NCBI GenBank assembly: GCA_963664705.1
Contig: OY761556.1
Span: 1,536,001-1,600,000, forward strand
Source of the DNA: Acidobacteriota bacterium
GTDB lineage: Bacteria > Acidobacteriota > UBA6911
Direction: 5' to 3'
Length of the DNA: 64,000 bases
This document shows positions 2,337 through 24,959 of the stretch, piece after piece (the first letter of the stretch is position 1; every line of letters begins with the position of its first letter). The notes beneath the pieces were generated by a model. That model was not told the DNA's origin, ran no database searches, and saw only the letters and a program-made list of their open reading frames with translations. The position numbers were made by a program, and so were the translations under genes.

Positions 2337-2359
2337 TGAGCGGGAGTAATTCAGCGGTA
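2337..2359 (+). repeat. att site (left): 23-bp direct repeat TGAGCGGGAGTAATTCAGCGGTA = 5' end of tRNA-Gly
   Basis: Identical to 12750-12772, which overlaps the first 20 nt of the intact tRNA-Gly; lies ~240 bp upstream of the integrase. Confidence 0.93.
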
Positions 2360-2602: not shown

Positions 2603-3700
2603 ATGAAAATTGCCCTACGATCCAGACCGACTACGATACGTGGCAAACGAAGCCTGTACCTTGATTTTTACGACAACGGCAGGCGCTGGTATGAAAGCCT
2701 GGGCTTATACACGATCGGCGATCGTGAGGCGGATAAACAGACAAAACGGCTTGCAGAAACTATCCTCAGCCAGCGGCGGCTTGATGCTGCATCGACTAAC
2801 AACGCGCTGCCAGCGCCATCACGATCAAAAGCCGATTTTGTGGAATTCTGCCGGAAGATCGGAGAGGAAAAGCCTTCGGAGAATACCCAGCTTGTTTGGA
2901 AAAACACCATTTCCCATTTAAAAGCCTTCGCGGGGGAACATGGAATTACGCTCGGGGCCATCAATGAAGCTTTTCTGGAAAGATTCCGCGACTACCTTTT
3001 GACGAAGGTGAGCCCGAATACAGCGCTCACCTATTTTTCCAGAATAAAGACAGCCTGCAGGAAAGCGGCGAATGAGCAAATCATCCCGCGTTATGTCGGA
3101 AGCGGTATCACGATCAGAAAACAGCAGACTAACCGCGCATACTTGACACTTGAGGAACTGCAAAAGCTCGAACGGACTCCAAGCGCAAACCAGGCGGTAA
3201 GGGATGGCTTCCTGTTCTCATGTTTTGCAGGATTGCGATATAGCGACGTAAAAGCGCTGACCTGGGATCAGGTAAGGCGAGAGGGAAATCATTCGTTCTT
3301 GTGGTTCTCACAAGAGAAAACAGGGGATTTTCAATCACTCCCGCTATCTCACCAGGCGCTTGAAATTCTGAACGCGCAGCAAAAGGCAAAACCTTCGCCG
3401 AAGATCCGGCAGGAAATTGGGAAAGACATTATTTTCAAGCTTCCTGCTCAGCAGACTGTGGACAAGGCTTTGAAGCGCTGGGCGAAGCGGGCCGGGATAG
3501 AAAAAACCGTTAGTTTTCATGTGGGCCGTCATACCTTCGCAACACTGGCGCTCACCTATGGTGCGGATCTTTACGTTGTTTCAAAGCTGCTCGGGCATCG
3601 GCGGATAGAGACAACGGAAATATATGCAAAAGTCGTGGATAAATCCAAGCGGGATGCAGTTACACTTCTGCCAAAGCTCAAACGAGCGCCGAAAAAATAA
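2603..3700 (+). CDS. int: Tyrosine recombinase / site-specific integrase
   Basis: Catalytic motifs GLRYSD, FHVGRHTFAT, LLGH and TEIY; N-terminal arm-binding-like SLYLDFY segment; next to att. Confidence 0.96.
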   Translation: MKIALRSRPTTIRGKRSLYLDFYDNGRRWYESLGLYTIGDREADKQTKRLAETILSQRRLDAASTNNALPAPSRSKADFVEFCRKIGEEKPSENTQLVWKNTISHLKAFAGEHGITLGAINEAFLERFRDYLLTKVSPNTALTYFSRIKTACRKAANEQIIPRYVGSGITIRKQQTNRAYLTLEELQKLERTPSANQAVRDGFLFSCFAGLRYSDVKALTWDQVRREGNHSFLWFSQEKTGDFQSLPLSHQALEILNAQQKAKPSPKIRQEIGKDIIFKLPAQQTVDKALKRWAKRAGIEKTVSFHVGRHTFATLALTYGADLYVVSKLLGHRRIETTEIYAKVVDKSKRDAVTLLPKLKRAPKK

Positions 3701-3929: not shown

Positions 3930-4217
3930 ATGACCAATCGTGAAATTGCCGAAAAATTAGAGAGCATAGAATCTAAGCTTTCCGATCTGACCAAGGCCTC
4001 AGAAAAACCCTTTGATTTGGCGGCGGCTGCGGACTATCTGAAGATGAGCAGAAGCCACTTATATCAATTGACCTGCCGAGGAATAATAGCGCACTACAAG
4101 CCAGGCGGAAAGCGAATCTACTTTGAAAAATGTGATTTGGATGAATACGTGCGGCGGAACCGTATCAGATCGCAATTCGAATTGGAATCTGAAGCTGCCA
4201 ACCGGATATCGGCTTAA
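3930..4217 (+). CDS. Excisionase/AlpA-like helix-turn-helix DNA-binding protein
   Basis: AAADYLKMSRSHLYQL...IAHYKPGGKRIYF pattern of excisionase-family HTHs; AGGAG RBS before ATG 3930. Confidence 0.85.
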   Translation: MTNREIAEKLESIESKLSDLTKASEKPFDLAAAADYLKMSRSHLYQLTCRGIIAHYKPGGKRIYFEKCDLDEYVRRNRIRSQFELESEAANRISA

Positions 4218-4229
4218 GAAGGCTTCCCA

Positions 4230-5087
4230 ATGAATAAGTTTTGGTGGTTTCCATTTCCTGTCGAATGGTGGCTGGTTACTACACGGTTCATGACTGCAGA
4301 ACAGGCAGGCTTTCTAATCAACCTGATGGCTGAATGTGGAAATTCGCCTGAGTGCGGAATTCCCGCCGACCCTGATACTTTGTGGCAGCGGGCGCGCGCA
4401 AAAAATCGAAAACGATTCGAATTTTTATCAAAACCAGTCCTGGAATTGTTTGTACTCCGAAATGACTTCTATTACTCACGAAAATTGCTCGAACTGAAAG
4501 AAGACCTTGACGAAAAGACAGCCCGCCGTCAAGCAGCTGGAAAAGCTGGAGCTACAGCCCGCTGGGGATCAGAAAGCGCAAAGCAACCGGATAGCAATGC
4601 TATGCGTTTGCCATCAACGCCGCATGCGGATGCCATAAAATCGCAATGCGAAACAATGGCATATACAGTTACAGATACAATTAGAGATACAGAACATAAC
4701 AGAACAGAAGATAAAAATACTTCTTGCGCTGCGGCAAGCGCCGCGCCGGAACCAGTCGAGCCGGTTATATCGCTTCCTCTGAATGATGGAACTGAATTTT
4801 CAGTTGAGCAAAAAATGCTCGATGAGTGGCTAGAACTTTATCCTGGCGTCGATGTGCGCCAGGCGCTTCGGAATATGCGCGGCTGGCTTCTCGGTAATCC
4901 ACGGAATCGAAAAACCTGGAGCGGCATATACAAATTCATCGTTAGTTGGCTCTCAAAGGATCAAAACAAAGCGCCAGCACTCAGTGGCAAGAACGGCCAC
5001 CGGAAACTAGCCAACATAGCCAGGCTGACAGAGGAAGATCTTTCGGGCGGACGGACCATGAATCCAGATGGGACTTATCGATTATGA
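4230..5087 (+). CDS. Phage-type replication initiator (YdaU/DUF1376-like N-terminus)
   Basis: N-terminal WFPFPVEWWL..TRFMTAEQAGFLINL, central RQAAGKAGATARWG, repetitive linker, C-terminal YPGVDV..LRNMRGWL..NP..RKT..FIVSWL as in phage replication proteins. Confidence 0.75.
   Translation: MNKFWWFPFPVEWWLVTTRFMTAEQAGFLINLMAECGNSPECGIPADPDTLWQRARAKNRKRFEFLSKPVLELFVLRNDFYYSRKLLELKEDLDEKTARRQAAGKAGATARWGSESAKQPDSNAMRLPSTPHADAIKSQCETMAYTVTDTIRDTEHNRTEDKNTSCAAASAAPEPVEPVISLPLNDGTEFSVEQKMLDEWLELYPGVDVRQALRNMRGWLLGNPRNRKTWSGIYKFIVSWLSKDQNKAPALSGKNGHRKLANIARLTEEDLSGGRTMNPDGTYRL
4662..4716 (+). repeat. Degenerate 5-6 nt repeats (TACAGT/TACAGA/ACAGA) inside the rep gene; candidate origin
   Basis: tacagttacagatacaattagagatacagaacataacagaacagaag encodes the low-complexity linker; lambdoid origins lie inside the initiator gene. 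Confidence 0.45.
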
Positions 5088-5228
5088 ACGGATTTCCTGC
5101 TGTGCCCAGGTCTCAAAACTACCTTTCAGGGGCAGGCGTCAACGGACTACTCCACCGTTGACAGTCGATCGGCAACCGTGGCACATGCCGATCGGCACAA
5201 CACACAAATGACGAGAAAGGAAAAACAA

Positions 5229-6047
5229 ATGGAACAGGCAAGCGTTGTTACGGATCAGCAATTACGGGCGAGCTTCCGCGCTGTAATCGGCAAATCTGAA
5301 TCTGTGATTGTCAGAGAAGACAAGAAAATCTGGCGTGCATTCCACGCGCAGCTACCCGGACCGCATAAGCCAATAACGCGCGAGCAAAGCAAACGCTGCG
5401 CTGAAGCTGAGGGGCTTGTGTACGAAGGGCTTCAGCCCTGGGGATTTTGCCTATACCGGAAAGATGCGAAAAGGCCCGAAATTCGGCTAATGGCATATGC
5501 GCGTGAAAAGGGATTGCATTATGTCGATGCGCCTGCATCGGGTTCCGCAAGCACGTCCAAAGGCGCGACGGTTGAACCTGGCCAGGCCATCGTCAAAAAC
5601 GATGTTCCGCAAGCTAAGCCTGCCCAGAAAAAAACGTTCAAGACTCCAAGACAAATTGCGGCGGATGCAGTGCAACTGGTAGAAACCGCGCGGGCAGAAG
5701 GCCGCATTCTCAGCAGTTCCGATGCTGTGAATATGGTTTTAGCCAGGCCCGGAACTGTTTGCTCAGCAATGCTCAAGGAAAGCGTGAGCCCGCACAGTGA
5801 TGAGCCCGCATCCGCCGTGGTGGATAGCCAGGTGCGCCAGGTGCAGGACTTGGTTGCGTATGAAGCGGCGCACGGTCGCAAACTCACAAACGCCGAAGCC
5901 CTGGCGATAGTTACGCAAAAAGAAAGCGCCGAAGATCCGAAGCAGCTGGCACGCAGGGCGCAGCAATATGTTGACGCCCAGGCCGCGCTGGGGCACCGAG
6001 TAACCATGGCCGAGGCAGTCTCGACTATTTTACAAACAAACCACTAA
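5229..6047 (+). CDS. Hypothetical protein with three C-terminal repeats resembling head scaffold/prohead-protease C-termini
   Basis: Repeats QIAADAVQLVETARAEGRILSSSDAVNMV, QVRQVQDLVAYEAAHGRKLTNAEALAIV and QLARRAQQYVDAQAALGHRVTMAEAVSTI; AAAGGA RBS before ATG 5229. Confidence 0.6.
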   Translation: MEQASVVTDQQLRASFRAVIGKSESVIVREDKKIWRAFHAQLPGPHKPITREQSKRCAEAEGLVYEGLQPWGFCLYRKDAKRPEIRLMAYAREKGLHYVDAPASGSASTSKGATVEPGQAIVKNDVPQAKPAQKKTFKTPRQIAADAVQLVETARAEGRILSSSDAVNMVLARPGTVCSAMLKESVSPHSDEPASAVVDSQVRQVQDLVAYEAAHGRKLTNAEALAIVTQKESAEDPKQLARRAQQYVDAQAALGHRVTMAEAVSTILQTNH

Positions 6048-6057
6048 AGGAGGCCGT

Positions 6058-6486
6058 ATGAAAGAACTTGTTGAAGTTCAAGATTTCTATAATGCGATCG
6101 GGCGCGCTGTAAAGGAAAGCGCCACACGAGAAGCGCTCACCTGGCTGGAACGAGTGCGCGCGGCAATTGAATACGCAGAGCAGCGGGAACTGTCAGAATC
6201 GGAGCGCGATGATATCGCGGCTATAAGAAGGCGGCTTGCGTTTGAAGCCTTAGAAATTCAGCAGCGACTGCTTCCGGTACTGAAGCAGCTTGAGACCGCG
6301 CTGTTTGATGCAGCTGGAAAAGCGGCAATTGATACCGCGTGCACCGGTGTCACCAAGGATTTTGGCGGCGGAAACGTTAAGCGCTATCCGGCTCCATTTC
6401 AGCATCCCGCTGAATACGAAAAGGCAAATTCGGAACCAAAGCGGGAACCATTCCTGCAGCGCCTTTTTGGGAAGGGAGCCGCTTAG
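6058..6486 (+). CDS. Hypothetical protein (element-encoded, helical)
   Basis: Strong AAGGAGG RBS; operon position. Confidence 0.7.
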   Translation: MKELVEVQDFYNAIGRAVKESATREALTWLERVRAAIEYAEQRELSESERDDIAAIRRRLAFEALEIQQRLLPVLKQLETALFDAAGKAAIDTACTGVTKDFGGGNVKRYPAPFQHPAEYEKANSEPKREPFLQRLFGKGAA

Positions 6487-6678
6487 ATGTCTGAACAAAT
6501 TGCGGGCAGGCTCAATGACATTCTATTGGGCTTAACTTATCGAAGAAGTTCGGATGATTTAGGGAGTGTACAGCTTCCTGAGTGCGCGCGAAAAGCGATT
6601 GTTTCCGCACTTCTCCCAGAGATCAAAAAAATGATTGCTGAAAACTCTTCCCAGGCTGAAGAAAAGCCCAGCAAATGA
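6487..6678 (+). CDS. Small hypothetical protein
   Basis: ATG directly follows the previous TAG; GGGAG RBS. Confidence 0.55.
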   Translation: MSEQIAGRLNDILLGLTYRRSSDDLGSVQLPECARKAIVSALLPEIKKMIAENSSQAEEKPSK

Positions 6679-7083: not shown

Positions 7084-7190
7084 AGGTACTGGTAGGAAAT
7101 TTTTTAGCGCGGGTACCGGCGATGGCGGGCTTTGGCTTACGTAACGGGTTTTTTAAGTCGTGTCAGTGTCAGTTTGGCTAACCCTGGGAG
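7084..7190 (+). other. Putative cos/packaging site upstream of terS
   Basis: Non-coding; AGGTACT...T-tract...GCGGGTACCGGCGATGGCGGG shares the CGGCGA core with lambda cosN and sits directly upstream of a Nu1-like gene, as in lambda. Confidence 0.45.
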
Positions 7191-7201
7191 GGTAATCGGA
7201 A

Positions 7202-7753
7202 ATGGCAAATAGATCTGCTGGTAACCTGGTAAGAGTGACGCAGATCATGGCGGATTTTGGATGCTCTGAGCGCCAGGTTGGCCGCTTCGTTTCTGAGGGG
7301 ATGCCCAAAGCCAGGTACGGCAAATATGATCGGCTGGCGTGTCTTATGTGGTACTCGAAAAAGCTAAGGTGCGACCTTGATGCTGCTGGCGATATAACCG
7401 ACTTAGAGCGGGAACAAATCAGAGTACAGAGAGCAACCGCAGATCTAAAGGAAATGGAACTTAGCGATAGACGCGCCAGCTTGATACCGCGCTGGATACA
7501 TGAAAAGCACGTACAGATGGCTTTTGACGCTGTGCGGCGGGCTATCCTGCCAATCGCAGAGCAGATCGCGCCTGAACTTGAAGGCCTGGATAGATTGGAG
7601 ATCAAAACCAGGCTGCACAAGAAGTACCGCGATGTTTTAAGCCAGCTGGCCACGGGCGCGGATGTGGTAATGGAAGTACCTTCCGACGATGATGCGGGCA
7701 CCGAAGTTAAGCAGCCGATCGCAAAGAAGCAAAAAACAAAAGGGCGTAAGTAG
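7202..7753 (+). CDS. Terminase small subunit, lambda Nu1-like (or Rpp-like packaging redirector)
   Basis: N-terminal wHTH (IMADFGCSERQVGRFVSEGMP..GKYDRLACLMWY) followed by a coiled coil (EREQIRVQRATADLKEMEL..RASLIP); GGGAGG RBS. Confidence 0.85.
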   Translation: MANRSAGNLVRVTQIMADFGCSERQVGRFVSEGMPKARYGKYDRLACLMWYSKKLRCDLDAAGDITDLEREQIRVQRATADLKEMELSDRRASLIPRWIHEKHVQMAFDAVRRAILPIAEQIAPELEGLDRLEIKTRLHKKYRDVLSQLATGADVVMEVPSDDDAGTEVKQPIAKKQKTKGRK

Positions 7754-7780: not shown

Positions 7781-7975
7781 ATGCGCGCGCGATATCACAG
7801 CGTTTGCCGTACTTGTAAAAAGCGCATCCGACCAGGTGAGGAAATTCGTTTCGTGCGCGAAAATTTCACGATTCATCAAAACTGTTCGCCCAAAGTACCG
7901 CCGAAGTCTTCCGCGCTGAATCAGCAACGGACGCAGCTTGCCCTTGAACGGTTTGAGCGCGCCGGATTCCGGTAG
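7781..7975 (+). CDS. Small putative zinc-binding protein
   Basis: CRTC...I.PGE.I....HQNC motif; GGAGGGAG RBS. Confidence 0.65.
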   Translation: MRARYHSVCRTCKKRIRPGEEIRFVRENFTIHQNCSPKVPPKSSALNQQRTQLALERFERAGFR

Positions 7976-8001: not shown

Positions 8002-10860
8002 ATGGCTAACAATGCGGCACCTGATGTGCGGGTAAGGCTCAGCGCTGAAGGCGTGGCCGAAGTAGTCAAGGCGTTTAAACAGGTTCAAACCGAATCCGAG
8101 AAAACCAAAAAGGCTGGCGCAAGTTCGGGCGGCGCGATCGGGCAGCTTATGGGAAACCTGGGCGGCCTAAAATCGCTGATTCCCACCATAACCGTGGCCG
8201 GAATAATCACGGGCTTTGTGGCCATGGCAAAGGGCGCGCTGGATGCGGCGGCAGCCATCGGCAAAATGAATCAACGCACTGGGCTTTCAGTGCAAACCCT
8301 GAGTGTAATCGGTTATGCCGCGCAAAAAACCGGCAGTGACTTGGAAGTGGTAGAAAAGGGCTTTGTCAAATTTGATAAAGCCATGCTGCAGCTGGACAAT
8401 AACAGCAAAGCCACGCGGGATGCCCTGCAGGATTTAACGGGCAGCGCTGATTCACTGAATGGCCTTAACACGGATGAAAGGCTGAAAAAGGTAATTGATG
8501 CCCTGGCGCAAATGGAGCCCAGCTACAGGCGCACGGCACTGGCCCAGGAATTTTTTGGAAGGGGCGGCGCGCAACTGCTACCCATCATTGACAAGCTGGG
8601 CGGGGAAGGCTTCGCAAAGCTCCGCGAGGAAGCGGAAAAAGTGGGCCTGATGTATGACAAAAGTTTTATCCAGGCGGCCCGCCAGGCTAAAGCAGGCATG
8701 CGCCAGCTGCAGCTGGAAGCCAGGGGCATGGCCACACAATTTTCTGCTGGCCTTATTCCAGCCATATCTGATGCAGGCGCGGCGCTGATGGAAGCCACGG
8801 GCGGCAGTGGTATTAATGGCTTCAAAATGCTGGGAGAATTCGCGGGCAATGTTATCAAAACGATTATATCCGCACTTGTAAAAATCGGCCTTAACGCTAC
8901 CTGGATTTTTGGGCGCGTGGCCAGCCTTGGCACACGCACATTTGAGTTGATTAATAATGCCGCGCATGGCCGCATCAAGGTGGGCTGGGAAGCCTTCAAG
9001 CAGGGAATAATTAACGATTCCACGGCGCTGGATAAAACCCTGCAGGATAAATACGACAAATTCCAAATGGCCCTGGAGGGCAAAAAGCGCCTGAAGCCAG
9101 AGCCAGAGCCCGTGCAGGATGAGACGGACTACAGCTATAAGCCCGATGAAGGGAAGATAGAAAAGGCGCGCCGGGCCGCGCTGGCACTTGCGGAAGCTAA
9201 CCAGGATGCAGCCGCGCGCGTGGCGGCTGCCGAACTGAAGCAGCGCGAAGCGGAAGAAAAGGAAAAGTATGAAAAGGGCCTGGAATCCTTGAATGAATAC
9301 TACCAGGCGCGCCTGGATATGACGCGGGAGCAGGCCGCAAAAGAGGAAAAGGCCCTATACGACAAAATCCAGCAGCTGCAGAAAGCACCCCTGGGTAAGG
9401 ATGAATTGCAGGATGAGCGCCAGGCCGAAATTGTGAAAGCATCCGCAGATTACCAGGTGAAGGTGCTAGAAAATACGGCGGCGCTTAAGGCCCTGGAAGC
9501 GGAAAGGGCCAAAGAAATGGAAGACCTGCAGCAGAAGGCCCTGGAGTTTGAAAAGAAAATCCAGAAGGTGCAGGCCGATAGATACCGGGCCGCAAAGGCG
9601 GATATTGACGCCCAGGCGGCGGCCCTGGATGCGCTGCTGCAAAAGCAGGGCGTGGCACCTGCGCAGCGATCGCAGCGCGTGGAAGCCTTCCGGCAGGCTG
9701 GTTACCAGGAAATAGATTTCGGCCAGCTGCAGAATGATGGCGATAGAGCCATAAAGGAAATTGCAAACGCCAGGGCGGATATTAACCGGCAAGCCCAGGC
9801 GGGCCAGCTTACTGAAATGGAGCGAGAGCAGCAAATAGCAAATATGGAACGCGCGCGGCTGCCGATTCTGCAGGAAATTGCCAAAGCCCTATCAGGCACT
9901 GCCATAACGGATGAGCAACGCCAGGCCGCCGCTGATTTCCAGGTGCAGATTGAATCCATGGCTTTTAACCAGCAGCGCGACCTGGGCACCCAGGCCCTGC
10001 AGCAGCTGGACAGGGCGCGCCAGGATATCCAGCGCAAGGTACAGGAAGGGCAACTGTATGAATTCCAGGGTGAGGAACAAATCAGACAGCTGGAAATCCA
10101 GCGCCTGCCACTGCTGCAGCAGATAGCGGATGCAATGAAGGCGGCAGCCATCACGGATGAGCAGCGCCAGGCTGTGGCAGACTTCCAGGCGCAAATAGAC
10201 CAGCTGGCCACCAGCACCAATAAGGCGGCCCTGGAATCGGCAGCGTTTAAACGCGACGTGCAAGGCGCGCTTACATCCGATCTTACTAACTGGTTTTCAA
10301 GCGGCATAGACGGCGCTGAAAGCCTGGGGGATGCATTCAGGGGCCTGGCCGCCAGCGTGGTGCAATCGCTGCGGCAAATCGCTTCACAGATGCTGGCAAA
10401 CCTGCTTATCCAGAAAATGCTGGGCCTGGTGGGCGGAATTGCAGGCGGCGCACCTGCCGGCGGATCGGGCGGCGGATCTGCGCCCGTTTTCGTTGCCAGT
10501 GGCGGCCTGGTGCGCGGGCCTGGTACTGGCACCAGCGATAGCATAGCAGCCCGGCTTTCCGATTATGAATACGTGGTGCGCAGCGCGGTGGTAAGAAAGC
10601 CAGGCGTGCTGGAGTTTTTAAGCAGGCTTAATTCTGGCGGGCCAGTGGTGCGCACTCCCAAAAGTTACCGCTTCGCCCAGGGCGGACTGGTGGATGTAGC
10701 GGCATCTGGCAAGGGCGGGCAAGCAGGCATCACTGCAGTGCTGGGCCTAGATGAAGCACTGCTATTAAAGCGCGTGGAAGCTTCCCCAGAATTCAGCAGA
10801 GTAATTGTACGGACTGCCGCGAACAATCAAAAGGCAATGAACAATGCCCTGGGAAGGTAG
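8002..10860 (+). CDS. Phage tail tape measure protein
   Basis: N-terminal VRVRLSAEG, long Ala/Gln/Lys-rich helical body, FFGRGGAQLLP, and the typical TMP C-terminus ASGGLVRGPGTGTSDSIAARLSDYEYVVR...RFAQGGLV. Confidence 0.92.
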   Translation: MANNAAPDVRVRLSAEGVAEVVKAFKQVQTESEKTKKAGASSGGAIGQLMGNLGGLKSLIPTITVAGIITGFVAMAKGALDAAAAIGKMNQRTGLSVQTLSVIGYAAQKTGSDLEVVEKGFVKFDKAMLQLDNNSKATRDALQDLTGSADSLNGLNTDERLKKVIDALAQMEPSYRRTALAQEFFGRGGAQLLPIIDKLGGEGFAKLREEAEKVGLMYDKSFIQAARQAKAGMRQLQLEARGMATQFSAGLIPAISDAGAALMEATGGSGINGFKMLGEFAGNVIKTIISALVKIGLNATWIFGRVASLGTRTFELINNAAHGRIKVGWEAFKQGIINDSTALDKTLQDKYDKFQMALEGKKRLKPEPEPVQDETDYSYKPDEGKIEKARRAALALAEANQDAAARVAAAELKQREAEEKEKYEKGLESLNEYYQARLDMTREQAAKEEKALYDKIQQLQKAPLGKDELQDERQAEIVKASADYQVKVLENTAALKALEAERAKEMEDLQQKALEFEKKIQKVQADRYRAAKADIDAQAAALDALLQKQGVAPAQRSQRVEAFRQAGYQEIDFGQLQNDGDRAIKEIANARADINRQAQAGQLTEMEREQQIANMERARLPILQEIAKALSGTAITDEQRQAAADFQVQIESMAFNQQRDLGTQALQQLDRARQDIQRKVQEGQLYEFQGEEQIRQLEIQRLPLLQQIADAMKAAAITDEQRQAVADFQAQIDQLATSTNKAALESAAFKRDVQGALTSDLTNWFSSGIDGAESLGDAFRGLAASVVQSLRQIASQMLANLLIQKMLGLVGGIAGGAPAGGSGGGSAPVFVASGGLVRGPGTGTSDSIAARLSDYEYVVRSAVVRKPGVLEFLSRLNSGGPVVRTPKSYRFAQGGLVDVAASGKGGQAGITAVLGLDEALLLKRVEASPEFSRVIVRTAANNQKAMNNALGR

Positions 10861-10865
10861 AAAAT

Positions 10866-11141
10866 ATGATTCCGGCAACTACTCTGTTTTGGGTGATAGT
10901 GGCCGCGCTCTATGCGATTATCGGGGCATTCTGGGCAGGCGCTGCAAAGGTACACGGGGCAATACGCTGTATAGCGATCTTGAGCGGAGAAGTGAAAGAG
11001 GAATGGCCAGCGGCCCGCAATTATTACCATTGGATTAGGCCCTTGGGATTTTTCTTTCTGTGGCCGCTGTTTTGTTGGATCGCGGATTATAGAGTAGAAA
11101 AGGAACGGCGCGCCGAAGATAAGCGGCGCGCCGGGTCATAG
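10866..11141 (+). CDS. Small membrane protein
   Basis: Two hydrophobic segments; starts 5 nt after the TMP stop. Confidence 0.6.
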   Translation: MIPATTLFWVIVAALYAIIGAFWAGAAKVHGAIRCIAILSGEVKEEWPAARNYYHWIRPLGFFFLWPLFCWIADYRVEKERRAEDKRRAGS

Positions 11142-11186: not shown

Positions 11187-11348
11187 CTACACTTCTTTTT
11201 CTTCGAAGCCGCACAATCGCGCGGCGCATTCCACCACGGTTTCTATATCCTTTTCCTGAAGCGCGGCCTTCATGCGGGCCAGGATGGCTTCGCGGGCCTT
11301 TCCCATTTCAATCAGTACCTCCACCAAGGGGCGTCTATCTTCGCTCAT
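11187..11348 (-). CDS. Small hypothetical protein (53 aa, MSEDRRPLVEVLIEMGK...), not in the ORF track
   Basis: ATG immediately follows the TAA of the upstream minus-strand ORF; read manually to a TAG at 11187. Confidence 0.5.
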   Translation of the reverse strand: MSEDRRPLVEVLIEMGKAREAILARMKAALQEKDIETVVECAARLCGFEEKEV

Positions 11349-11672
11349 TTAGCATCCTGTCCTGACGAAGTGCGTTATTCGGCTCACAGCAATCAATGCA
11401 TTTAATCCCTTTTCGGCCTTTGTGGACGCGGCAGGATTGAAGGCGCTCTGGAATTGTGACGGCCACAAGTGCAAGAACGATAGGGCATCCCGCTGGGCTG
11501 CGGAGATTCTAAGCAGCGCGCGCGATCGCGCGTAAGCATCTACCTTAGTTGGGCTCATTCCGGCAGCTTGTACCGTGAGGCCCGTAATATCAGTTTCGAA
11601 GTCTTCGACTCTGAAGGCTGCAGGATTGCGAAGAATCGCATTCTGAACTTTTAAAAGTAATCGGGTATTCAT
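11349..11672 (-). CDS. Hypothetical protein (MNTRLLLKVQ...)
   Basis: GGAGG RBS before ATG at 11672; upstream TTGACA..CAAGAT promoter-like sequence on the minus strand. Confidence 0.65.
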   Translation of the reverse strand: MNTRLLLKVQNAILRNPAAFRVEDFETDITGLTVQAAGMSPTKVDAYARSRALLRISAAQRDALSFLHLWPSQFQSAFNPAASTKAEKGLNALIAVSRITHFVRTGC

Positions 11673-11719
11673 TTTTGGTATTCCTCCGGATGTACCGAAG
11701 GCACGCGGGTATATAATGC

Positions 11720-11794
11720 GGACGGCGCGCTGCGTGCCCAAATCACGCGGTTCGCTAGGCCCTGGTGGGTGTTAGTAGCACTCCCAGGGCCGCC
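11720..11794 (+). ncRNA. Candidate cis-antisense/structured RNA (SymR-like hairpin)
   Basis: Hairpin GGCCCTGGTGGGTGTTAGTAGCACTCCCAGGGCC downstream of a + strand TATAAT at ~11712, overlapping the leader of the minus-strand gene. Confidence 0.4.
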
Positions 11795-11950
11795 AATCCC
11801 TACCATCTTGTTTGCTTGGGCCTGATTTTGTCAAGCTGGATACGTCCGATTTGTGCCCGCCATCACATTTTTCGTGCATAGCGGGAACAAGATGTTCCGA
11901 TATAATAAGCGGCATTCCTTAGCCCAATACGACCGTAAAGGAGGAAGCTT

Positions 11951-12562: not shown

Positions 12563-12752
12563 AGAGATTAAACGGGTAAGCTCTTGAAAAAAAATCCGTT
12601 CCAGGATAAATTGTTGCCCGTGATGAGCACGAAAGAGCAACGGGCAATTCGGAATGGCAACCCCATACACCAGAATTTGACTTGTTGCGAAATTGGTGCG
12701 AATAGGAAATTGCAAAAACAGTAAGTCTATCAATTTCAATAAGATAGATTGA

Positions 12753-12827
<75 letters not shown>

Positions 12828-13243
12828 GCCAAATCAAACAAATCCAATCACTTACGGCGACACGAAAAAACGAGGAGAGAACGGGTTCCCTACTGGTGCA
12901 GCCAGGGTGCAGATTCTGATCGGTCTAGACTGGGTATCCAAACTCGCAGGGACAATGGATGCCAATATATTTCTCCCATGGCCGTTCCCACTGCAGGCCA
13001 CGGATTAAACAACAGCAAACCCTATTGAGCAATGTGATCGTGAAGCATTGGAGATATTCTGCGCAGTCCACCGTGAGATGAAGAATCTGTCCCAGGCGAT
13101 ATAGCGTCGGATGAGGGCAGCGTTTTTGCTGTTGAGTGTAGCAGGGGTGCAGATTTTTGCCTGATTCGAGGATGTACTTGATGCCAGATTTTAATAGAAA
13201 GCGTGTCCCATATATGGGACGCTGACGCAGAAGTTTAGATGAA

Positions 13244-13592
13244 ATGGAGTGGATTCCTGTTCGCTTTTACGGCTCCGCGCGGGATGTAATTCATGGTTGG
13301 CCGCTGGAGGTTAAGAAGGAATTAGGGTCAGTATTGACGAGACTTCAGAAAGGCGACTCCATTGGAATGCCTGATGTTCGGCCCATGCCCGATATCAGCC
13401 CGCAGGTTTCAGAGATCAGAATACCTGACAGGAGTGGAAATTGCAGAGCATTGTATGCAATCCGAACGAAATTTGGAATCTTGCTGTTCCACGCGTTCCA
13501 AAAAAAAGAGCCGCAAAACCTCCGAAAGGGAGAAGAAGACCGCGCGAACTCGACTTGAAGCTTTTTTGAAAGAACTTGAGGAAGGGCAATGA
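13244..13592 (+). pseudogene. RelE/HigB (Gp49-like) toxin, frameshifted at an A8 tract
   Basis: Frame 1 ends ...LLFHAFQKK; the expected tail SRKTSEREKKTARTRL..EGQ* is in another frame and ends overlapping the antitoxin ATG; one extra A at 13500-13507. Confidence 0.8.
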
Positions 13593-13891
13593 AACAAAAA
13601 AGGGAAGGCAGCAAAACCGTTACGGCGAAGACACCGAACGATATAGGACGGATACTGGGGCTTACTCCAGGGGATATTGCTCTTATGAAATACAAGACAG
13701 AGCTATCGCATCTGGCCGTCAAATCGATCCGGGAATCGGGACTCGCGCTCGGTGAAATTGTAAAAAGATCCGGGGTTGCTCGCTCGAAAGTGTCCGCGAT
13801 AAAAAACGGAGCAACTGTTTCTGTTTCCTGTGATCTGTTAGTGAAAATTATCGGTGCCACGGGCGTTGAAGTTCAACCCAATGCTGCCTAA
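13589..13891 (+). CDS. XRE-family HTH antitoxin (HigA-like)
   Basis: IVKRSGVARSKVSAIKNG..VSCDLL HTH; directly downstream of the toxin. Confidence 0.85.
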   Translation: MKQKREGSKTVTAKTPNDIGRILGLTPGDIALMKYKTELSHLAVKSIRESGLALGEIVKRSGVARSKVSAIKNGATVSVSCDLLVKIIGATGVEVQPNAA

Positions 13892-14029
13892 GATACCGCC
13901 AGGTCGTCCTCTCGAAAGAAAAAGGCTTTCCGATTCCGGACTGAAAACTCTGGTCCGCAATCTGGATGGATGGCTCTCAAATTCAGTGCTTGTCCAACCC
14001 AAGCCAGTTTGATTAAGGAGGAATTGAGG

Positions 14030-14647
14030 GTGAATTCCAAAAGAGTGGCGCCTGTTTATCAAATTAAAATTAGTCTGCGGGATACGGAACCCCCTGTTTG
14101 GAGGTGCATTCAGGTCCCATCGAGCTATAGTTTTTGGGATTTGCATGTCGCTATCCAGGATGCCATGGGTTGGACGGATTCCCATCTCCACATGTTTCGC
14201 GTCTCCTCCACAAATAAGCGGAAAGGGGTAAACATAGGGATTCCGGATGAGGACTTCGATGATATCCGGATCTTGGCCGGATGGGAAATCCCACTTTCCC
14301 TGCATTTCCGAGAACCTGGGGCCAAGGGAATCTATGAGTATGATTTTGGGGATAGCTGGGAGCACGACATTCTTCTTGAAGGAGTGCTCATTCCAGAGGT
14401 GGGGGCGAAATATCCGCGGTGCCTCGCGGGGGAGAATGCGTGTCCGCCTGAGGATTGCGGAGGGATTGGAGGATACTACAACCTTCTGGAAATCATTCGT
14501 GACCCGCTTCACGAAGAGTACGAAGAAAGTCTGATTTGGCTAAAGAGCATGGTTCCCGGAAATGTCCCGTTTGACTCGACGAAATTTGCTCCGGAAGAAG
14601 TTCATTTCAATAACCCGAAGAAGAGGCTCAGATCCCTTCACATCTGA
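14030..14647 (+). CDS. Plasmid pRiA4b ORF-3 family protein
   Basis: YQIKISL..PPVWR, LHVAIQDAMGWTDSHLHMF, YEYDFGDSWEH and ACPPEDCGG motifs. Confidence 0.92.
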   Translation: MNSKRVAPVYQIKISLRDTEPPVWRCIQVPSSYSFWDLHVAIQDAMGWTDSHLHMFRVSSTNKRKGVNIGIPDEDFDDIRILAGWEIPLSLHFREPGAKGIYEYDFGDSWEHDILLEGVLIPEVGAKYPRCLAGENACPPEDCGGIGGYYNLLEIIRDPLHEEYEESLIWLKSMVPGNVPFDSTKFAPEEVHFNNPKKRLRSLHI

Positions 14648-14835
14648 CGCGTACCGCAAGATGGTAGTTTCGCCCGGAATTTGCGAACTTGTAGCCAAAG
14701 GTTGATGGTTCATGAAGGATAGAAGTTCGGATTCCAAATATTCCATTAATATTCTATTAAGGGAGCGTGCTGCACCAGTTCGAGGAATATGCTGATTTTA
14801 CATAGCCGTGATTCAATGCCATAAACGCCTAAGTC

Positions 14836-14866
14836 CGTCGCCGGTTCGATCCCGGTCTCCCGCTCC
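14836..14866 (+). repeat. tRNA-Gly 3'-end fragment (att remnant, 31 bp)
   Basis: CGTCGCCGGTTCGATCCCGGTCTCCCGCTCC is identical to 12796-12826. Confidence 0.92.
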
Positions 14867-15283
14867 CAAAAGATAAAATCACTTATAACGATACGGAAAA
14901 ATTGAGGCGGAAGCGATTTTTGCTCCTGGGTGCAGATTCTTCCCAAATTAAACCCATACTGCAAGCATCGGGTGACACTTCATACCGGAGACATAGGTAA
15001 CGGTTTTGGTGCGAAACGCCCGCAGGTTCTAATCTACAGCTCGGCCGTGAGGCATGGGCGCAGGCTACATTGCCGATAACCTTTATCCGGCCCAGCGGAT
15101 GGGTAGTTTACTTCTCAATCGGGGGCCGTATCTCCAAAATCCAATCTGTATTTTAAATTTGGAAACACGGCCCAATGAACCCCATTTTAGCCAAGATAGC
15201 AGTACCTGCACATTTCCTATATGATTGTATGAGTCAATAAAGGCTTCTGAAATGAGCATCGTTGCTGATCAAACGAATTTGCG

Positions 15284-16573
15284 GTGAGGGAAATTAGGAT
15301 GTCGCATAATCCATTTAAGAACAGAAATGAAGACAGCGCATCACCGGCCAAGATTGGGAAACTGGGATGGCGATATCACTGCATCGCGAGCTGGTCTTTA
15401 CTCGCCCAGCTGTGCACCTGCGCGCTGCTCTCTGCACTGATCTGCCGCGCCCAGACGGCGCCCCCTATTGGTCCCATTCGGAGCATCGCTTCGAACGGCA
15501 GCTTTTCGATCGTTGTCAAAGCCGATGGTTCCGTAGTAGGGTGGGGACGAGATCCCGATGGACAGGCGGCTCGACAGCCGTCGCAAAAGCGCGTGATCAC
15601 CTCCCCGGAAACGATCAGCCTGCCAGGCAAAGTGCTGCAGGTGGCGCTTGGTGAAACTACGCAGTACGCGCTCCTTGAAGACGGTACGGTGATTGCGTGG
15701 GGGACAAACGATGAGGGCCAATTAGGTAATGGCCCTATGGGCGCCAGCGGAGAATTGGGCCGATACCCCAAACCATCGGTGACCCCGGTGCTCGTTACCG
15801 GCCTCACTGACATCATTCAGATTGCGGCAGGCTGGAAACACGCGGTTGCTTTGCGCAAGGATGGCACTGTATGGGCGTGGGGGAGACGTGATAACGGCGA
15901 GATCGGCGACGGCAAGCCCGAGGGGCTGAGTGCATTGCGAGCCATCGGACCTACTCGCGTTCCTGGCCTTGAAGGCATCACGCAAATTGCGGTGGCGCGA
16001 CCGCACAACCTTGCGCTCCGGGCCGATGGCCGCGTGGTGGCATGGGGCTCGAACAGGGACGGCGAACTCGGCAACGGTGGACGCCTGACGGGATGGACGC
16101 CGACGGAAGTGAGCGGCATTGATCGTGTCATCTCGATTGCTGCGGGCACTGGTGGCGGCAAAGGCCTTTCGGGTGCGATCCGAAGCGACGGCACGGTCTG
16201 GTTATGGGGAACCAATACCTCCGCGCAGATGGGCAATGGACTTGGGCCGCTGTCGCCTGACGATCCCGGCGGACGTGTGCTGCAACCTGTACCGGTGGCT
16301 GGAGTGGCCGGTGCGAAGAGCCTTACTATCGGCGATGGGCACATCGCGGTGCTGCTCCGCGATGGAACCCTCAGAATGTGGGGTCACGATGGCTGGGGCC
16401 AGATCGGAGTAGGCACATCGGGCTTCTACCACGATATTTATCTTGGCGGCCCACATTCATTCGCGGTTTGCACCGACGGGAAGCTCTGGGTCTGGGGCAA
16501 GAGCTTCATAGAGAATAGTCCCGGCCTGCTTGGGAAGAACCTTTATGCTCCAACTCAGCTCAACTTGCCCTGA
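15284..16573 (+). CDS. Secreted RCC1-repeat beta-propeller protein
   Basis: Repeated DGTVxAWGxNxxGQLGxG motifs; signal-peptide-like segment; start uncertain. Confidence 0.9.
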   Translation: MREIRMSHNPFKNRNEDSASPAKIGKLGWRYHCIASWSLLAQLCTCALLSALICRAQTAPPIGPIRSIASNGSFSIVVKADGSVVGWGRDPDGQAARQPSQKRVITSPETISLPGKVLQVALGETTQYALLEDGTVIAWGTNDEGQLGNGPMGASGELGRYPKPSVTPVLVTGLTDIIQIAAGWKHAVALRKDGTVWAWGRRDNGEIGDGKPEGLSALRAIGPTRVPGLEGITQIAVARPHNLALRADGRVVAWGSNRDGELGNGGRLTGWTPTEVSGIDRVISIAAGTGGGKGLSGAIRSDGTVWLWGTNTSAQMGNGLGPLSPDDPGGRVLQPVPVAGVAGAKSLTIGDGHIAVLLRDGTLRMWGHDGWGQIGVGTSGFYHDIYLGGPHSFAVCTDGKLWVWGKSFIENSPGLLGKNLYAPTQLNLP

Positions 16574-16845
16574 CGCATCCGCTGCTTTCTCCCCTGTCAG
16601 GCTTGCCGTCGACGTACTCCAGTACAATGTAATCCGGGCCTATGTCGAAAAGCTGGCAAATATAAAGGTGATTTAGTGCGGCGATGCGGACAATTATCAA
16701 TTGCCGGCTTCTATGGGTCGAAGAAGGATGGTCTGTACTCCATTAAGAACATGGTTTTCGCGGACCCGCATAAACAGGGCGTATTCTGATCATCGAAAAT
16801 CAACACCATGCAACCTATGTTATGTATTTTCAATGTTGAGTCAAT

Positions 16846-16894
16846 TTCCCAAGCTGGACGTTGCCGGTTCGATCCCGGTCTCCCGCTCCAGCCA
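16846..16894 (+). repeat. tRNA-Gly 3'-half fragment from the anticodon loop (att remnant, 49 bp, 1 mismatch)
   Basis: TTCCCAAGCTGGACGTTGCCGGTTCGATCCCGGTCTCCCGCTCCAGCCA matches 12783-12831. Confidence 0.92.
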
Positions 16895-16914
16895 GATCAA
16901 ATAAATCAAATAAC

Positions 16915-17118
16915 TTAGCGGAACGAGGAAGAAGCGGGAAGGGAAGCTCTGCGAGTCCGGTTGCGTCTGGGTGGCGCTTTCTGGCTAATGAGAGAAAGAC
17001 CCGTATGGCCATCCGCAGCAGTTTGCACGATAAAATCTCTGTCTTCCAGATATGCTCCAATGCTTTCGCGAAGGGATGGATCATCATCGATAATCAGTAC
17101 GCCGGTGGATGGTTTCAT
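16915..17118 (-). pseudogene. Truncated response regulator receiver domain
   Basis: VLIIDDDPSLRESIGAYLED...AADG..GL start; similarity is lost before the phospho-acceptor Asp, next to the att remnant. Confidence 0.75.
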
Positions 17119-23955: not shown

Positions 23956-23975
23956 CGCAGCCAATTGGAGGAAAC

Positions 23976-24959
23976 GTGCTGTTTCGAAATTCTGCCGGTG
24001 AGCCGTGTGCGCTGGTGAACAATATTCAGAAATATACGATCCACGACGGACCGGGCATCAGAACTGAGATTTTTTTCACAGGCTGTGCGATGCATTGCCT
24101 GTGGTGTTCGAATCCTGAGACGATTGCGTTTAGGTCTATAATTGGGTGTTATCCAAACAAGTGCCTGTCGCTTGATAAGTGCTCCTGGTGTGTAAAATCA
24201 TGCCCCCTGCAGGGAGCACCCCTTGAATTCGAAAACGGCATTCTTAAATCCATCCGGATGTCTTCTGTCTGTGATACCTGCTTCCAATGCGCCCACGCCT
24301 GCCCGTCTCAAGCGCTTAAGCGGTGGAGCGAGCTCATGACGGTCGAAGCCATGATCAAGGTGATAAAAGAGGATCTCAGCTTTTATCGAAAGACCGGCGG
24401 CGGTATGACGCTTAGCGGCGGTGAAGTGATGATGCAGTGGGAAGTCGCTGCCATGCTTTTAGAATCGTGTAAGATGTTGGATATTAATACCTGCGTTGAG
24501 ACCGCATTGCATTGTCCCCGCGAGCACATGGAAGCCGTGTTTAAGTATGCCGACCTTGTCATTGCGGATATCAAGCATATGAATACACAAATTCATAAAT
24601 CCTTAACCGGTGTCGGCAATGAGTTGATCCTGGACAACCTTAAAAGGACGGTTGAACTGGGCAAGAAGCTTGTAATCCGCACACCTGTGGTGCCGGGATA
24701 CAATGGCGACGAGGCCAATATGCGGGCGAGCGGCGCTTTTATTCGGGATGAATTGCAAAATGAAATTGTTCAATATCAATTGCTTCCGTTCCGGAAACTG
24801 GGCACCGAAAAATACAATTCGCTAGGTATTCCTTATCCCCTGGGAGATTACCGGCCTCCAGAACGGAGCGCCTGGGAGCATGATCTGCTGCAGTATGCCG
24901 ATATGCTAGTCAATGAATATGGCGTGCCTGCAGTCCCCGGTTCCAGCAAGCCATATTAG
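23976..24959 (+). CDS. Glycyl-radical enzyme activating protein (radical SAM with ferredoxin insert)
   Basis: HDGPGIRT, GCAMHCLWCSNPE (CX3CX2C), extra Cys motifs, SGGE. Confidence 0.95.
   Translation: MLFRNSAGEPCALVNNIQKYTIHDGPGIRTEIFFTGCAMHCLWCSNPETIAFRSIIGCYPNKCLSLDKCSWCVKSCPLQGAPLEFENGILKSIRMSSVCDTCFQCAHACPSQALKRWSELMTVEAMIKVIKEDLSFYRKTGGGMTLSGGEVMMQWEVAAMLLESCKMLDINTCVETALHCPREHMEAVFKYADLVIADIKHMNTQIHKSLTGVGNELILDNLKRTVELGKKLVIRTPVVPGYNGDEANMRASGAFIRDELQNEIVQYQLLPFRKLGTEKYNSLGIPYPLGDYRPPERSAWEHDLLQYADMLVNEYGVPAVPGSSKPY

What the first reader, a model, noticed from the sequence alone, without database searches (positions are those of the whole stretch)
8002..10860. Orphan tape measure protein lacking its usual tail-gene neighbours
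TMP genes normally lie between tail tube/assembly chaperone genes and distal tail genes. Here the TMP is flanked by a 64-aa Zn-binding ORF and a small membrane protein, yet takes about 27% of the element. Known: TMPs set tail length, help DNA cross the envelope, and are targets of some exclusion and defence proteins. Inference: it could replace the helper's TMP to alter injection or host range or evade exclusion, or act as a dominant-negative decoy against helper tails.
Basis: partly seen in the sequence, partly recalled or inferred. Interest (0 to 1): 0.8.

Follow-up and report, generated by a model that had tools for sequence, protein, structure and literature searches.

The report
Phage satellite carrying own tape measure
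A 10.4-kb mobile island, likely from an acidobacterium, carries a full-length phage tail 'ruler' gene but no capsid, portal or tail-tube gene, so it is likely a phage parasite that would put its own ruler into a helper phage's tail; four related islands suggest such rulers were likely taken from helper phages more than once.

Summary
Confirmed. ORF 8002-10860 is an intact 952-aa tape measure protein (TMP) filling 27.4% of a 10,435-bp att-bounded island at tRNA-Gly. The island also has integrase, excisionase, Rep, a cos-like site, TerS and a protein with three copies of a phage scaffold C-terminus, but no capsid, portal, TerL, tube or tail chaperone. The closest TMP of known context (58%, sharing an 82-aa duplication) lies in a full tail operon of a 41.8-kb uncultured phage, whose TerS (49%) and scaffold tail also match. 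That family, not the two resident prophages, is the likely helper. Three more complete islands and one partial one carry TMPs of this family; two add the tail-tip protein and one the chaperone. Satellite TMPs are not one clade (AU p=8e-6). Best reading: a PICI-like cos satellite that builds chimeric tails, as shown for Vibrio PLEs. Incorporation, expression and excision were not shown. TMP-bearing satellites are published (PLE, cf-PICI, EPIP), and this scan noted them before on other DNA. New here are the lineage, a matched helper family and repeated TMP recapture.

The parts
2337..2359 (+). attL, 23-bp direct repeat of the 5' end of tRNA-Gly
   Evidence: the 22-mer core occurs exactly twice in the 6.9-Mb genome
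2488..2598 (.). perfect 20-bp inverted repeat (2488-2507/2579-2598), third copy at 12682-12701; likely integrase arm-type sites (inferred)
   Evidence: I4, D5, I14
2603..3700 (+). tyrosine integrase, 365 aa, intact
   Evidence: Pfam PF00589 5.6e-22, PF13102, PF17293; phrog_1 2.5e-50
3930..4217 (+). excisionase / HTH_17 regulator
   Evidence: PF12728 1.9e-11; phrog_66
4230..5087 (+). replication initiator-like protein, 285 aa
   Evidence: phrog_3992 'primosomal protein' 1.3e-8; 57% over 72 aa to the Rep-like gene of island S5
5178..6047 (+). orf289: three C-terminal repeats of the helper-family protease-scaffold tail; predicted capsid-assembly (scaffold-mimic) protein
   Evidence: HMM of 2 phage scaffold tails E 5e-10 among 28,588 ORFs; HMM of 3 tails E 5.8e-16, last repeat strong, first two weak; 56% over 34 aa to G1226 scaffold, 1e-8
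6058..6486 (+). orf142, unknown, helical-looking
   Evidence: no Pfam/PHROG/NCBIfam/PADLOC/Atlas hit
6487..6678 (+). orf63, unknown
   Evidence: no family hit
7084..7130 (+). cos-like packaging site (7-mer, 21-nt spacer, GC-rich 12-13-mer) upstream of terS; function inferred
   Evidence: same layout at the ends of lambda NC_001416 and upstream of terS in S2, S4, S5, G1226, L257 and upstream of tmp in S3
7202..7753 (+). small terminase subunit TerS, 183 aa
   Evidence: phrog_57 1.9e-19; 49% to G1226 TerS, 48% to L257 TerS, no hit to resident prophage TerS
7781..7975 (+). orf64, CxxC/HxxC protein
   Evidence: phrog_1581 4.7e-9; 41.5% homologue in resident prophage A
8002..10860 (+). tape measure protein, 952 aa, with an 82-aa internal duplication (about residues 575-738)
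   Evidence: 58% to G1226 TMP over 969 columns
10866..11141 (+). orf91, predicted membrane protein; directly after tmp also in island S2
   Evidence: 38% to the L089 gene, 1.5e-15; 4 proteins
11106..11133 (.). 10-GC-pair hairpin between the convergent gene blocks; terminator-like
   Evidence: total terminator count not above shuffles
11187..11348 (-). orf53, unknown; weak match to orf57 at the same place in S2
   Evidence: (35 bits)
11349..11672 (-). orf107, conserved small protein, also in S2 and S4
   Evidence: 56% to S2, 7e-40; S4 homologue 1e-11; 365 family representatives at E<=0.001
11661..11810 (-). non-coding leader of orf107 conserved with S2
   Evidence: alignment score 134.5 vs best of 200 shuffles 85.5; no Rfam hit at gathering score
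11951..12562 (+). cargo: zinc-ribbon + TM + GOLD-like protein, 203 aa
   Evidence: PF13240 6.9e-7, PF01105 2.4e-7
12750..12827 (+). attR (12750-12772) overlapping intact tRNA-Gly(CCC) 12753-12827

Best explanation
The ORF is an intact tape measure protein carried by a 10.4-kb att-bounded island that likely works as a PICI-like cos satellite and would, when a helper phage of a matching family infects, build chimeric tails with its own TMP in place of the helper's. Shown: att repeats, integrase, Rep-like gene, TerS, TMP, no capsid/portal/TerL/tube/chaperone gene; a full phage (G1226) whose TMP, TerS, scaffold tail and cos-like site all match; four related islands. Inferred: the island excises and replicates; its TerS recruits the helper TerL to its own cos; orf289 binds helper capsid protein like SaPI CpmB and may shrink the head; the helper's tube, chaperones and tip assemble around the satellite TMP. 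The likely gain is that satellite particles get a tail core the satellite controls (DNA entry, escape from TMP-targeting defences, or immunity to its own tail blocker), not a much different tail length.
For: (1) TMP identity; orthologues sit between tube/chaperone and distal tail genes in 13 of the 14 best loci mapped, and in G1226 and L257. (2) One phage matches four independent parts: TMP 58% with the same 82-aa duplication (36/60 and 28/60 self-identity vs 12-15/60 in 6 TMPs without it), TerS 49%, scaffold tail 56%/34 aa, cos layout. (3) Recurrence: S2 (L089, 10,255 bp, 47-bp att at tRNA-Glu), S4 and S5 (G942, 18,472 and 17,465 bp, 40- and 46-bp att), S3 (G714, cut by contig end); different integrases and att sites; none of the five has capsid, portal or tube; TMP is the only virion gene in all five. 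(4) S4 and S5 add the phrog_1101 tail-tip protein (E 1e-211 or better) and S5 the G/T chaperone (2.9e-45, 2.7e-28): the same TMP + chaperone + tip/hub subset that PLEs carry (PMC12987554). (5) Satellite TMPs are not one clade: window TMP is sister to G1226 at 100/100; holding the 4 full satellite TMPs together is rejected, p-AU 7.6e-6 (14 rows of known context). (6) Purifying selection: pS 0.685, pN 0.28 vs G1226 TMP; orf107 and orf91 between S1 and S2 pS about 0.76, pN 0.29 and 0.39.
Against: No incorporation, expression or transfer was observed. The window element has no tail chaperone, unlike PLEs and S5, so it would need the helper's. No helper of the matching family is resident: phrog_807, phrog_1082, phrog_1101 and the G1226 capsid protein are not found in G000 (98% complete); the family's tube and phrog_1082 genes were also not found in G401 or G714, nor its capsid protein in G401 or G942 (G714 has a 34% capsid match). 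Contigs of the source sample cross attL unbroken and no attP junction was listed (contigs drop rare forms). The TMP is only 16 aa shorter than G1226's, so no clear length change. The pN/pS path includes time spent in a phage, so it does not by itself show selection inside the satellite. TMPs recombine among phages too, so the mosaic N-terminal third is not specific to satellites.
Confidence: 0.6

Rival explanations
1. The satellite TMP mainly interferes: it poisons or sequesters helper tail parts (dominant-negative decoy), lowering helper yield, while satellite particles use the helper TMP.
For: It sits in the late block after terS and would be made when tails form; its 101-400 region differs from the closest phage TMP (39-44%). 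Tail assembly is a known defence target (Tab, PMC10884400 abstract and headings; Rta, PMC12987554).
Against: It is full length with conserved ends and hydrophobic segments at the same places as the phage TMP; S4/S5 also keep an intact tip protein and S5 the chaperone, which suits building tails, not blocking them. A satellite that needs helper tails would harm itself.
Confidence: 0.12
2. The TMP is a passenger picked up by recombination with a helper and kept without function.
For: Satellite TMPs are polyphyletic and mosaic, as repeated chance capture would give; the selection signal may date from the phage phase.
Against: Five islands with different integrases keep a 2.6-2.9-kb open frame (S3 as far as its contig runs) while lacking capsid, portal and tube; in phages terS and tmp lie about 11 kb apart (G1226), so their junction needs precise loss of all genes between; tmp-orf91 adjacency is shared by S1 and S2.
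Confidence: 0.08
3. The element is a decayed prophage of the G1226/L257 family that lost most structural genes.
For: TerS, cos, scaffold tail and TMP are in phage order of relatedness and all come from one family; no excision seen.
Against: Perfect att repeats, intact integrase, no remnant of 14 other structural genes, a scaffold tail rebuilt as three repeats, satellite-only genes shared with S2, and the same design in four other islands.
Confidence: 0.05
4. The TMP acts outside the virion, in the carrier cell's membrane with orf91, as a superinfection-exclusion or sensing module against the helper family.
For: TMP has hydrophobic segments and orf91 is a predicted membrane protein directly downstream in S1 and S2; TMPs act at the inner membrane during injection (PMC13190303 abstract).
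Against: It lies downstream of cos-terS in a late-type block with no separate promoter above chance; orf91 is not found in S4 or S5; no PADLOC hit.
Confidence: 0.07

Closest known systems
PLEs of Vibrio cholerae with chimeric tails (PMC12987554, Nature 2026; passages and section 8 read)
   Same: Satellite without capsid or tube that encodes its own TMP; S4/S5 also carry a tip/hub protein and S5 a chaperone, like PLE TMP+TAC+BhuB.
   Different: PLEs parasitise the lytic myovirus ICP1 and always pair tmp with tac; PLE TMP is about 20% identical to the helper's and 95 aa different in length. Here the likely helper is a cos phage with a siphovirus-type tail, the TMP is 58% identical and 16 aa shorter, the window copy has no chaperone, and TMPs were exchanged with phages repeatedly. 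No PLE homology was tested gene by gene.
PICIs as defined for SatelliteFinder (PMC10085698, passages read)
   Same: Integrase, HTH regulator/excisionase, replication gene, TerS, about 10 kb (PICI median 9.5 kb), no lysis or head genes.
   Different: Tail genes are a 'forbidden' component in that PICI model; this element has one. Its capsid-morphogenesis candidate is a scaffold-tail repeat, not a capsid homologue.
SaPI1 CpmB (PMC5644958, passages read)
   Same: Satellite protein whose C-terminus copies the helper scaffold's capsid-binding C-terminus.
   Different: No sequence relation; orf289 has three copies of the motif; binding is not shown here.
EPIPs of Mycolicibacterium aichiense (PMC12822802, preprint; part 1 of 2 of the text read, main text through funding; supplement not seen)
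   Same: About 11 kb, TerS, scaffolding protein and TMP, no tail tube.
   Different: EPIPs have a serine integrase, head-tail adaptor/stopper and a major-capsid gene; their tails are longer than the helper's.
cf-PICIs with putative tmp genes (PMC12987554 Extended Data Fig. 10 legend; figure not seen)
   Same: PICI-type left arm plus a TMP.
   Different: cf-PICIs encode their own capsid, portal and terminases; this element does not.

Membership tests
Tape measure proteins | Profile match to TMP families | tested here: met
   11 named TMP PHROGs, best 7.6e-25; no Pfam/NCBIfam hit
Tape measure proteins | Orthologues between tube/chaperone and distal tail genes in phages | tested here: met
   G1226 (58%), L257 (42%), 13 of 14 loci
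Tape measure proteins | Long all-helical chain with hydrophobic segments | tested here: met
   (low global confidence, pTM 0.29)
Tape measure proteins | Incorporated into a tail and sets its length | not testable with these tools
   needs virions
PICI | Integrase and att-bounded insertion | tested here: met
PICI | Regulator of AlpA/MerR/Stl type | tested here: inconclusive
   HTH_17 excisionase-type gene (PF12728, phrog_66); no Stl-like divergent repressor found
PICI | Primase-replicase module | tested here: inconclusive
   only an O-like/primosomal initiator, phrog_3992 1.3e-8; no helicase or primase
PICI | Small terminase subunit | tested here: met
   phrog_57 1.9e-19
PICI | Capsid morphogenesis gene | tested here: inconclusive
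   scaffold-tail repeats in orf289; effect on heads untested
PICI | No tail genes (forbidden component in PMC10085698) | tested here: not met
   TMP present; so 'PICI-like', not a PICI by that definition
PICI | Helper-induced excision and packaging | not testable with these tools
   no attP junction in assembled contigs of 5 runs holding the stretch, which cannot show absence
PLE | tmp paired with tail assembly chaperone | tested here: not met
   family G and T HMMs hit only S5 among the five islands
PLE | capR, repA, nixI, lidI core and Vibrio/ICP1 specificity | not tested
   no direct comparison with PLE genes; family scans named none
EPIP | Serine integrase, head-tail adaptor/stopper, major capsid gene | tested here: not met
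   tyrosine integrase; no such genes
cf-PICI | Own capsid, portal and large terminase | tested here: not met
Defective prophage | Pseudogenes or remnants of lost structural genes | tested here: not met
   no tblastn match to 14 of 16 G1226 structural/packaging genes; all ORFs open

The most novel reading that the evidence does not exclude
A family of acidobacterial satellites that remodels all three helper assembly steps with captured helper parts (TerS+cos, multiplied scaffold tail, TMP) and keeps re-acquiring TMPs and TMP segments from the helper family; the minimal form (TMP alone, no chaperone) sits at one end of a gradient that adds chaperone and tail tip, and orf91/orf107 act as an Rta-like blocker of the helper's TMP to which the swapped N-terminal third is immune.
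Probability: 0.2. Interest if true: 0.78.

Novelty: new variant of a known kind. Interest (0 to 1): 0.52.

Why it matters
Why satellites carry a TMP is an open question even for PLEs, where the benefit is stated as unresolved (PMC12987554 discussion passage). This family offers natural comparisons: a satellite TMP 58% identical and nearly equal in length to a sequenced helper-type TMP, differing mostly in residues 101-400, and sister islands with TMP alone, TMP + tip, or TMP + chaperone + tip + TerL. It argues that the gain is not tail length and that satellites keep trading TMPs with helpers. It also shows a blind spot: satellite-finding models that forbid tail genes (PMC10085698) would reject these islands. 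Interest is capped because TMP-bearing satellites are already published, no host or helper is in culture as far as these searches show, and nothing was shown to be active.

Tried and rejected
Single-sequence locus scans with the TMP found nothing in viral or metagenome contigs; profile scans did. orf107 profile: no confirmed locus in viral contigs and only G000 in 137 genomes of its class. Resident prophages as helpers: A (C1:5131981-5171186; TMP 27% over 185 aa) and B (C1:2539795-about 2598000; TMP E 0.52), no TerS or scaffold-tail match; A has a cos-like site of similar layout and a GpA-type TerL, so it is unlikely, not excluded. orf91 as a tail chaperone T: hhalign probability 2.6%, rejected. 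orf142 homology to the helical ORFs at the same position in S2-S4: none. ESM Atlas: orf91 first hits under 0.9, orf142 none. PADLOC: 0 of 12 proteins. Rfam at gathering: tRNAs only, so my recalled idea of a c4-type RNA was not borne out. Promoter and terminator counts do not exceed shuffles. The loose cos pattern occurs 12 times in the genome, so only its position is evidence. Complex prediction of G1226 capsid protein with orf289 245-289: no verdict, 0.29 against a mark of 0.34. No RNA holder listed. Raw-read run X6 laid 0 reads, no test. First AU test (81, p 2.6e-5) used a group named after seeing a tree; the context-defined test (127) replaces it, though earlier trees had been seen. No cultured phage holds a full-length relative: 0 of 70 matching records cover 80% of the TMP (140). 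Loci L258, L260, L262, L263, L265, L266, L053, L138, L158, L022, L072, L073, L330, L331 hold distant TMPs in phage-like tail context or unclear context and were not counted as satellites; G1294 was not opened. Literature: 0 papers for satellite + Acidobacteria + prophage + tape measure; some searches listed only the PLE and EPIP papers as TMP-bearing satellites. Supplements and figures of those papers were not seen and may list further TMP-bearing islands.
Full report
OBSERVATION. The ORF at 8002-10860 (+) is open for 952 codons. PHROGs give 13 families, 11 named tape measure protein, best named 7.6e-25; Pfam and NCBIfam give none. An AlphaFold2 model on an 18-row alignment is all helix (pLDDT 62.7, pTM 0.29), and most of its named Foldseek matches among viral models are tape measures, with low TM-scores as expected for a floppy chain. 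The gene is 27.4% of the element.

THE ELEMENT. A 23-bp direct repeat (2337-2359, 12750-12772) copies the 5' end of tRNA-Gly(CCC); its 22-nt core occurs twice in the whole 6.9-Mb genome. Inside, in order: arm-like inverted repeat, tyrosine integrase, HTH_17 excisionase, O-like/primosomal initiator, orf289, orf142, orf63, a cos-like site at 7084, TerS (phrog_57, 1.9e-19), orf64, TMP, orf91, a hairpin, orf53 and orf107 on the other strand, and a zinc-ribbon/GOLD cargo gene. Of 16 structural and packaging proteins of the closest phage only TMP and TerS match; chaperone G and T profiles find nothing. The host phylum is inferred: a genome of the same genus (G481) encodes a TMP identical to one that NCBI labels Acidobacteria.

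THE LIKELY HELPER FAMILY. A protein search gave 76 relatives. Where context could be read, most are ordinary phage TMPs: 13 of the 14 best loci mapped have the tube/chaperone upstream or phrog_687-type structural genes downstream. A scan for the cos motif (28 viral loci) turned up IMGVR_UViG_3300049436_000041 (G1226, 41,787 bp, CheckV 88%), which encodes P0002, the top hit, in a full operon: cos, TerS, TerL, portal, S49 protease-scaffold, capsid, tube, chaperone, TMP, structural and tip genes. It matches the island in four places: TMP 58% over 969 columns with the same 82-aa duplication, TerS 49%, the scaffold's last helix 56% over 34 aa to orf289, and the cos layout. A prophage in the same genus (L257) is second: TMP 42%, TerS 48%. 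The two resident prophages do not match (TMP 27% over 185 aa and E 0.52; no TerS hit), and the family's tube, phrog_1082, tip and capsid genes are not found in G000. The helper would have to come in by infection. The cos reading rests on the ends of lambda NC_001416, where a 7-mer lies 23 nt before the cohesive end (the names cosQ/cosN are recalled); the loose pattern occurs 12 times in the genome, so the evidence is its position before terS in S1, S2, S4, S5, G1226 and L257.

RELATED ISLANDS. Profile searches covered 137 genomes of the host's class and overlapping samples of 401, 401, 241 and 121 genomes around G401/G942, plus one genome-collection scan. Five full-length close hits appeared: G000, G401, G942 twice and G481; four are islands, one a prophage. 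S2 (L089, Acidobacteria MAG): 10,255 bp, 47-bp att at tRNA-Glu, different integrase and Rep, S49 with scaffold tail, cos, TerS, TMP (42%), then homologues of orf91, orf53 (weak), orf107 and the orf107 leader. S4 and S5 (G942): 18,472 and 17,465 bp, 40- and 46-bp att at tRNA-Arg and tRNA-Gln; both have TMP, scaffold-derived genes, cos, TerS and the phrog_1101 tail-tip protein; S5 adds chaperone G/T and TerL; S4 has an orf107 homologue. S3 (G714): integrase at tRNA-Arg, excisionase, Rep, scaffold-tail gene, cos, TMP cut by the contig end. None of the five has capsid, portal or tube; TMP is the only virion gene in all. Indirectly, homologues of TMP (P0005), orf91 (P0241/P0242) and orf107 (P0085) are each on record on a 33,899-bp contig, which suggests a sixth; I could not read that DNA.

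HISTORY OF THE TMP. In a 14-row tree of TMPs with known context the window TMP is sister to G1226 (100/100); one clade of the four full satellite TMPs is rejected (p-AU 7.6e-6), as is S1+S2 (1.8e-5) (S3 and rows of unknown context left out). Segment trees (FastTree, 35-37 rows) put residues 60-300 with P0004 (99) but 385-570 and 660-952 with G1226/P0003/P0080. Identity to G1226 is lowest at 101-400 (39-44%), which holds a hydrophobic segment at 284-302; 301-400 is variable across the family. Direction of transfer is not rooted; phage-to-satellite is inferred because phages need the gene. pS 0.685 against pN 0.28 to G1226 shows purifying selection along the path, part of it in phages; orf107 and orf91, seen here only in islands, keep pN 0.29 and 0.39 at saturated pS between S1 and S2.

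ACTIVITY. Contigs of three runs of the source sample cross attL unbroken with no attP joint; a fourth run agrees as far as it reaches. A run of a second study holds identical short pieces inside and outside the island. Contigs drop rare forms, so this shows integration, not inactivity.

MECHANISM. Shown elsewhere: PLE11 virions contain the PLE TMP and hub, exclude the helper's, have 10-nm shorter tails, and tmp deletion cuts transfer 96-99.9% in three PLEs (PMC12987554, section 8). SaPI CpmB competes with the helper scaffold through a copied C-terminus (PMC5644958, passages). TMPs are targets of SNIPE and Tab (PMC13190303 and PMC10884400, abstracts and headings). Inferred here: on infection by a G1226-type phage the island excises and replicates; its TerS takes the helper TerL to its cos; orf289 binds procapsids; helper tube, chaperones and tip assemble on the satellite TMP. 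The S1 to S5 gradient (TMP; TMP + tip; TMP + chaperone + tip + TerL) fits building tails better than blocking them. With 952 against 968 residues, length change is not the point; control of the injection core or escape from TMP-targeting factors is more likely. I put this at 0.6; decoy 0.12, passenger 0.08, membrane exclusion 0.07, decayed prophage 0.05.

COMPARISON AND NOVELTY. It works like a PICI in layout and like a PLE in tail piracy but is a member of neither by the tested features (tail gene present; no chaperone, other helper type). EPIPs (PMC12822802) and some cf-PICIs (PMC12987554, figure legend) also carry TMPs. Searches found no paper on such islands in Acidobacteriota. This scan's notes list eight TMP-bearing satellite reports on other genomes and none for this sequence or its relatives; I did not check them. 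Verdict: new variant of a recently described kind, well supported as a mobile satellite design, unproven in function. Interest 0.52.

Noticed in passing
L259 (G433:C18:440000-459999, same class as the host): Compact island-like gene set seen in the ORF map: integrase end, AlpA-like gene, primase-like 749 aa, 621-aa head-like gene, 99-aa chaperone-like gene, 699-aa TMP, HNH-like gene, then TerL and portal; looks like a cf-PICI with a TMP. Labels other than TMP, TerL and portal are by eye.
   Followed up: no
window 12783-16917: Two further copies of the tRNA-Gly 3' end (14823-14894 partial, 16846-16917) at about 2-kb spacing enclose a Gp49/HTH_37 toxin-antitoxin-like pair, a pRiA4b ORF3 gene and an RCC1-repeat gene: small older islets at the same tRNA.
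   Followed up: partly
window 2337-2359 and L363 1506-1545: The window island and S4 duplicate the 5' end of their tRNA, while S2 and S5 duplicate the 3' end; 3' use is the common case (recalled).
   Followed up: partly
G000:C1:5131981-5171186 and 2539795-about 2598000: Two resident prophages, one lambda-like (GpA-type TerL, 1156-aa TMP) and one HK97-like (1443-aa TMP) with large RHS-like genes inside (RHS label by eye).
   Followed up: partly
window 11349-11672 and 11661-11810: orf107 belongs to a large small-protein family (365 representatives at E<=0.001; 13 of 20 scanned hit phrog_889, unknown function) and has a leader conserved with S2 that matches no Rfam family.
   Followed up: partly
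L363 and L364 (G942:C15): S4 and S5 lie on one contig, each has a second integrase at its far end, and their tip proteins are 68% identical; no capsid of the helper family was found in that genome.
   Followed up: partly
run X5 on window 12569-12782, 2338, 11078, 12413: In the second study's run one contig over the right att arm has depth 17 against 2-5 elsewhere, and single contigs leave the window sequence at several places inside the island; may be related islands in that sample.
   Followed up: no
L325 7379-9250 (-) and L328 8833-9684 (-): Scaffold-derived genes of S4 and S5 end in repeated motifs; S5 and S3 match the L016-type scaffold tail, a different motif from the window's, suggesting different helper subgroups.
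   Followed up: partly
window 21418-24959: Glycyl-radical enzyme (PFL-like, 1.9e-193) with its radical-SAM activase; substrate not examined.
   Followed up: no
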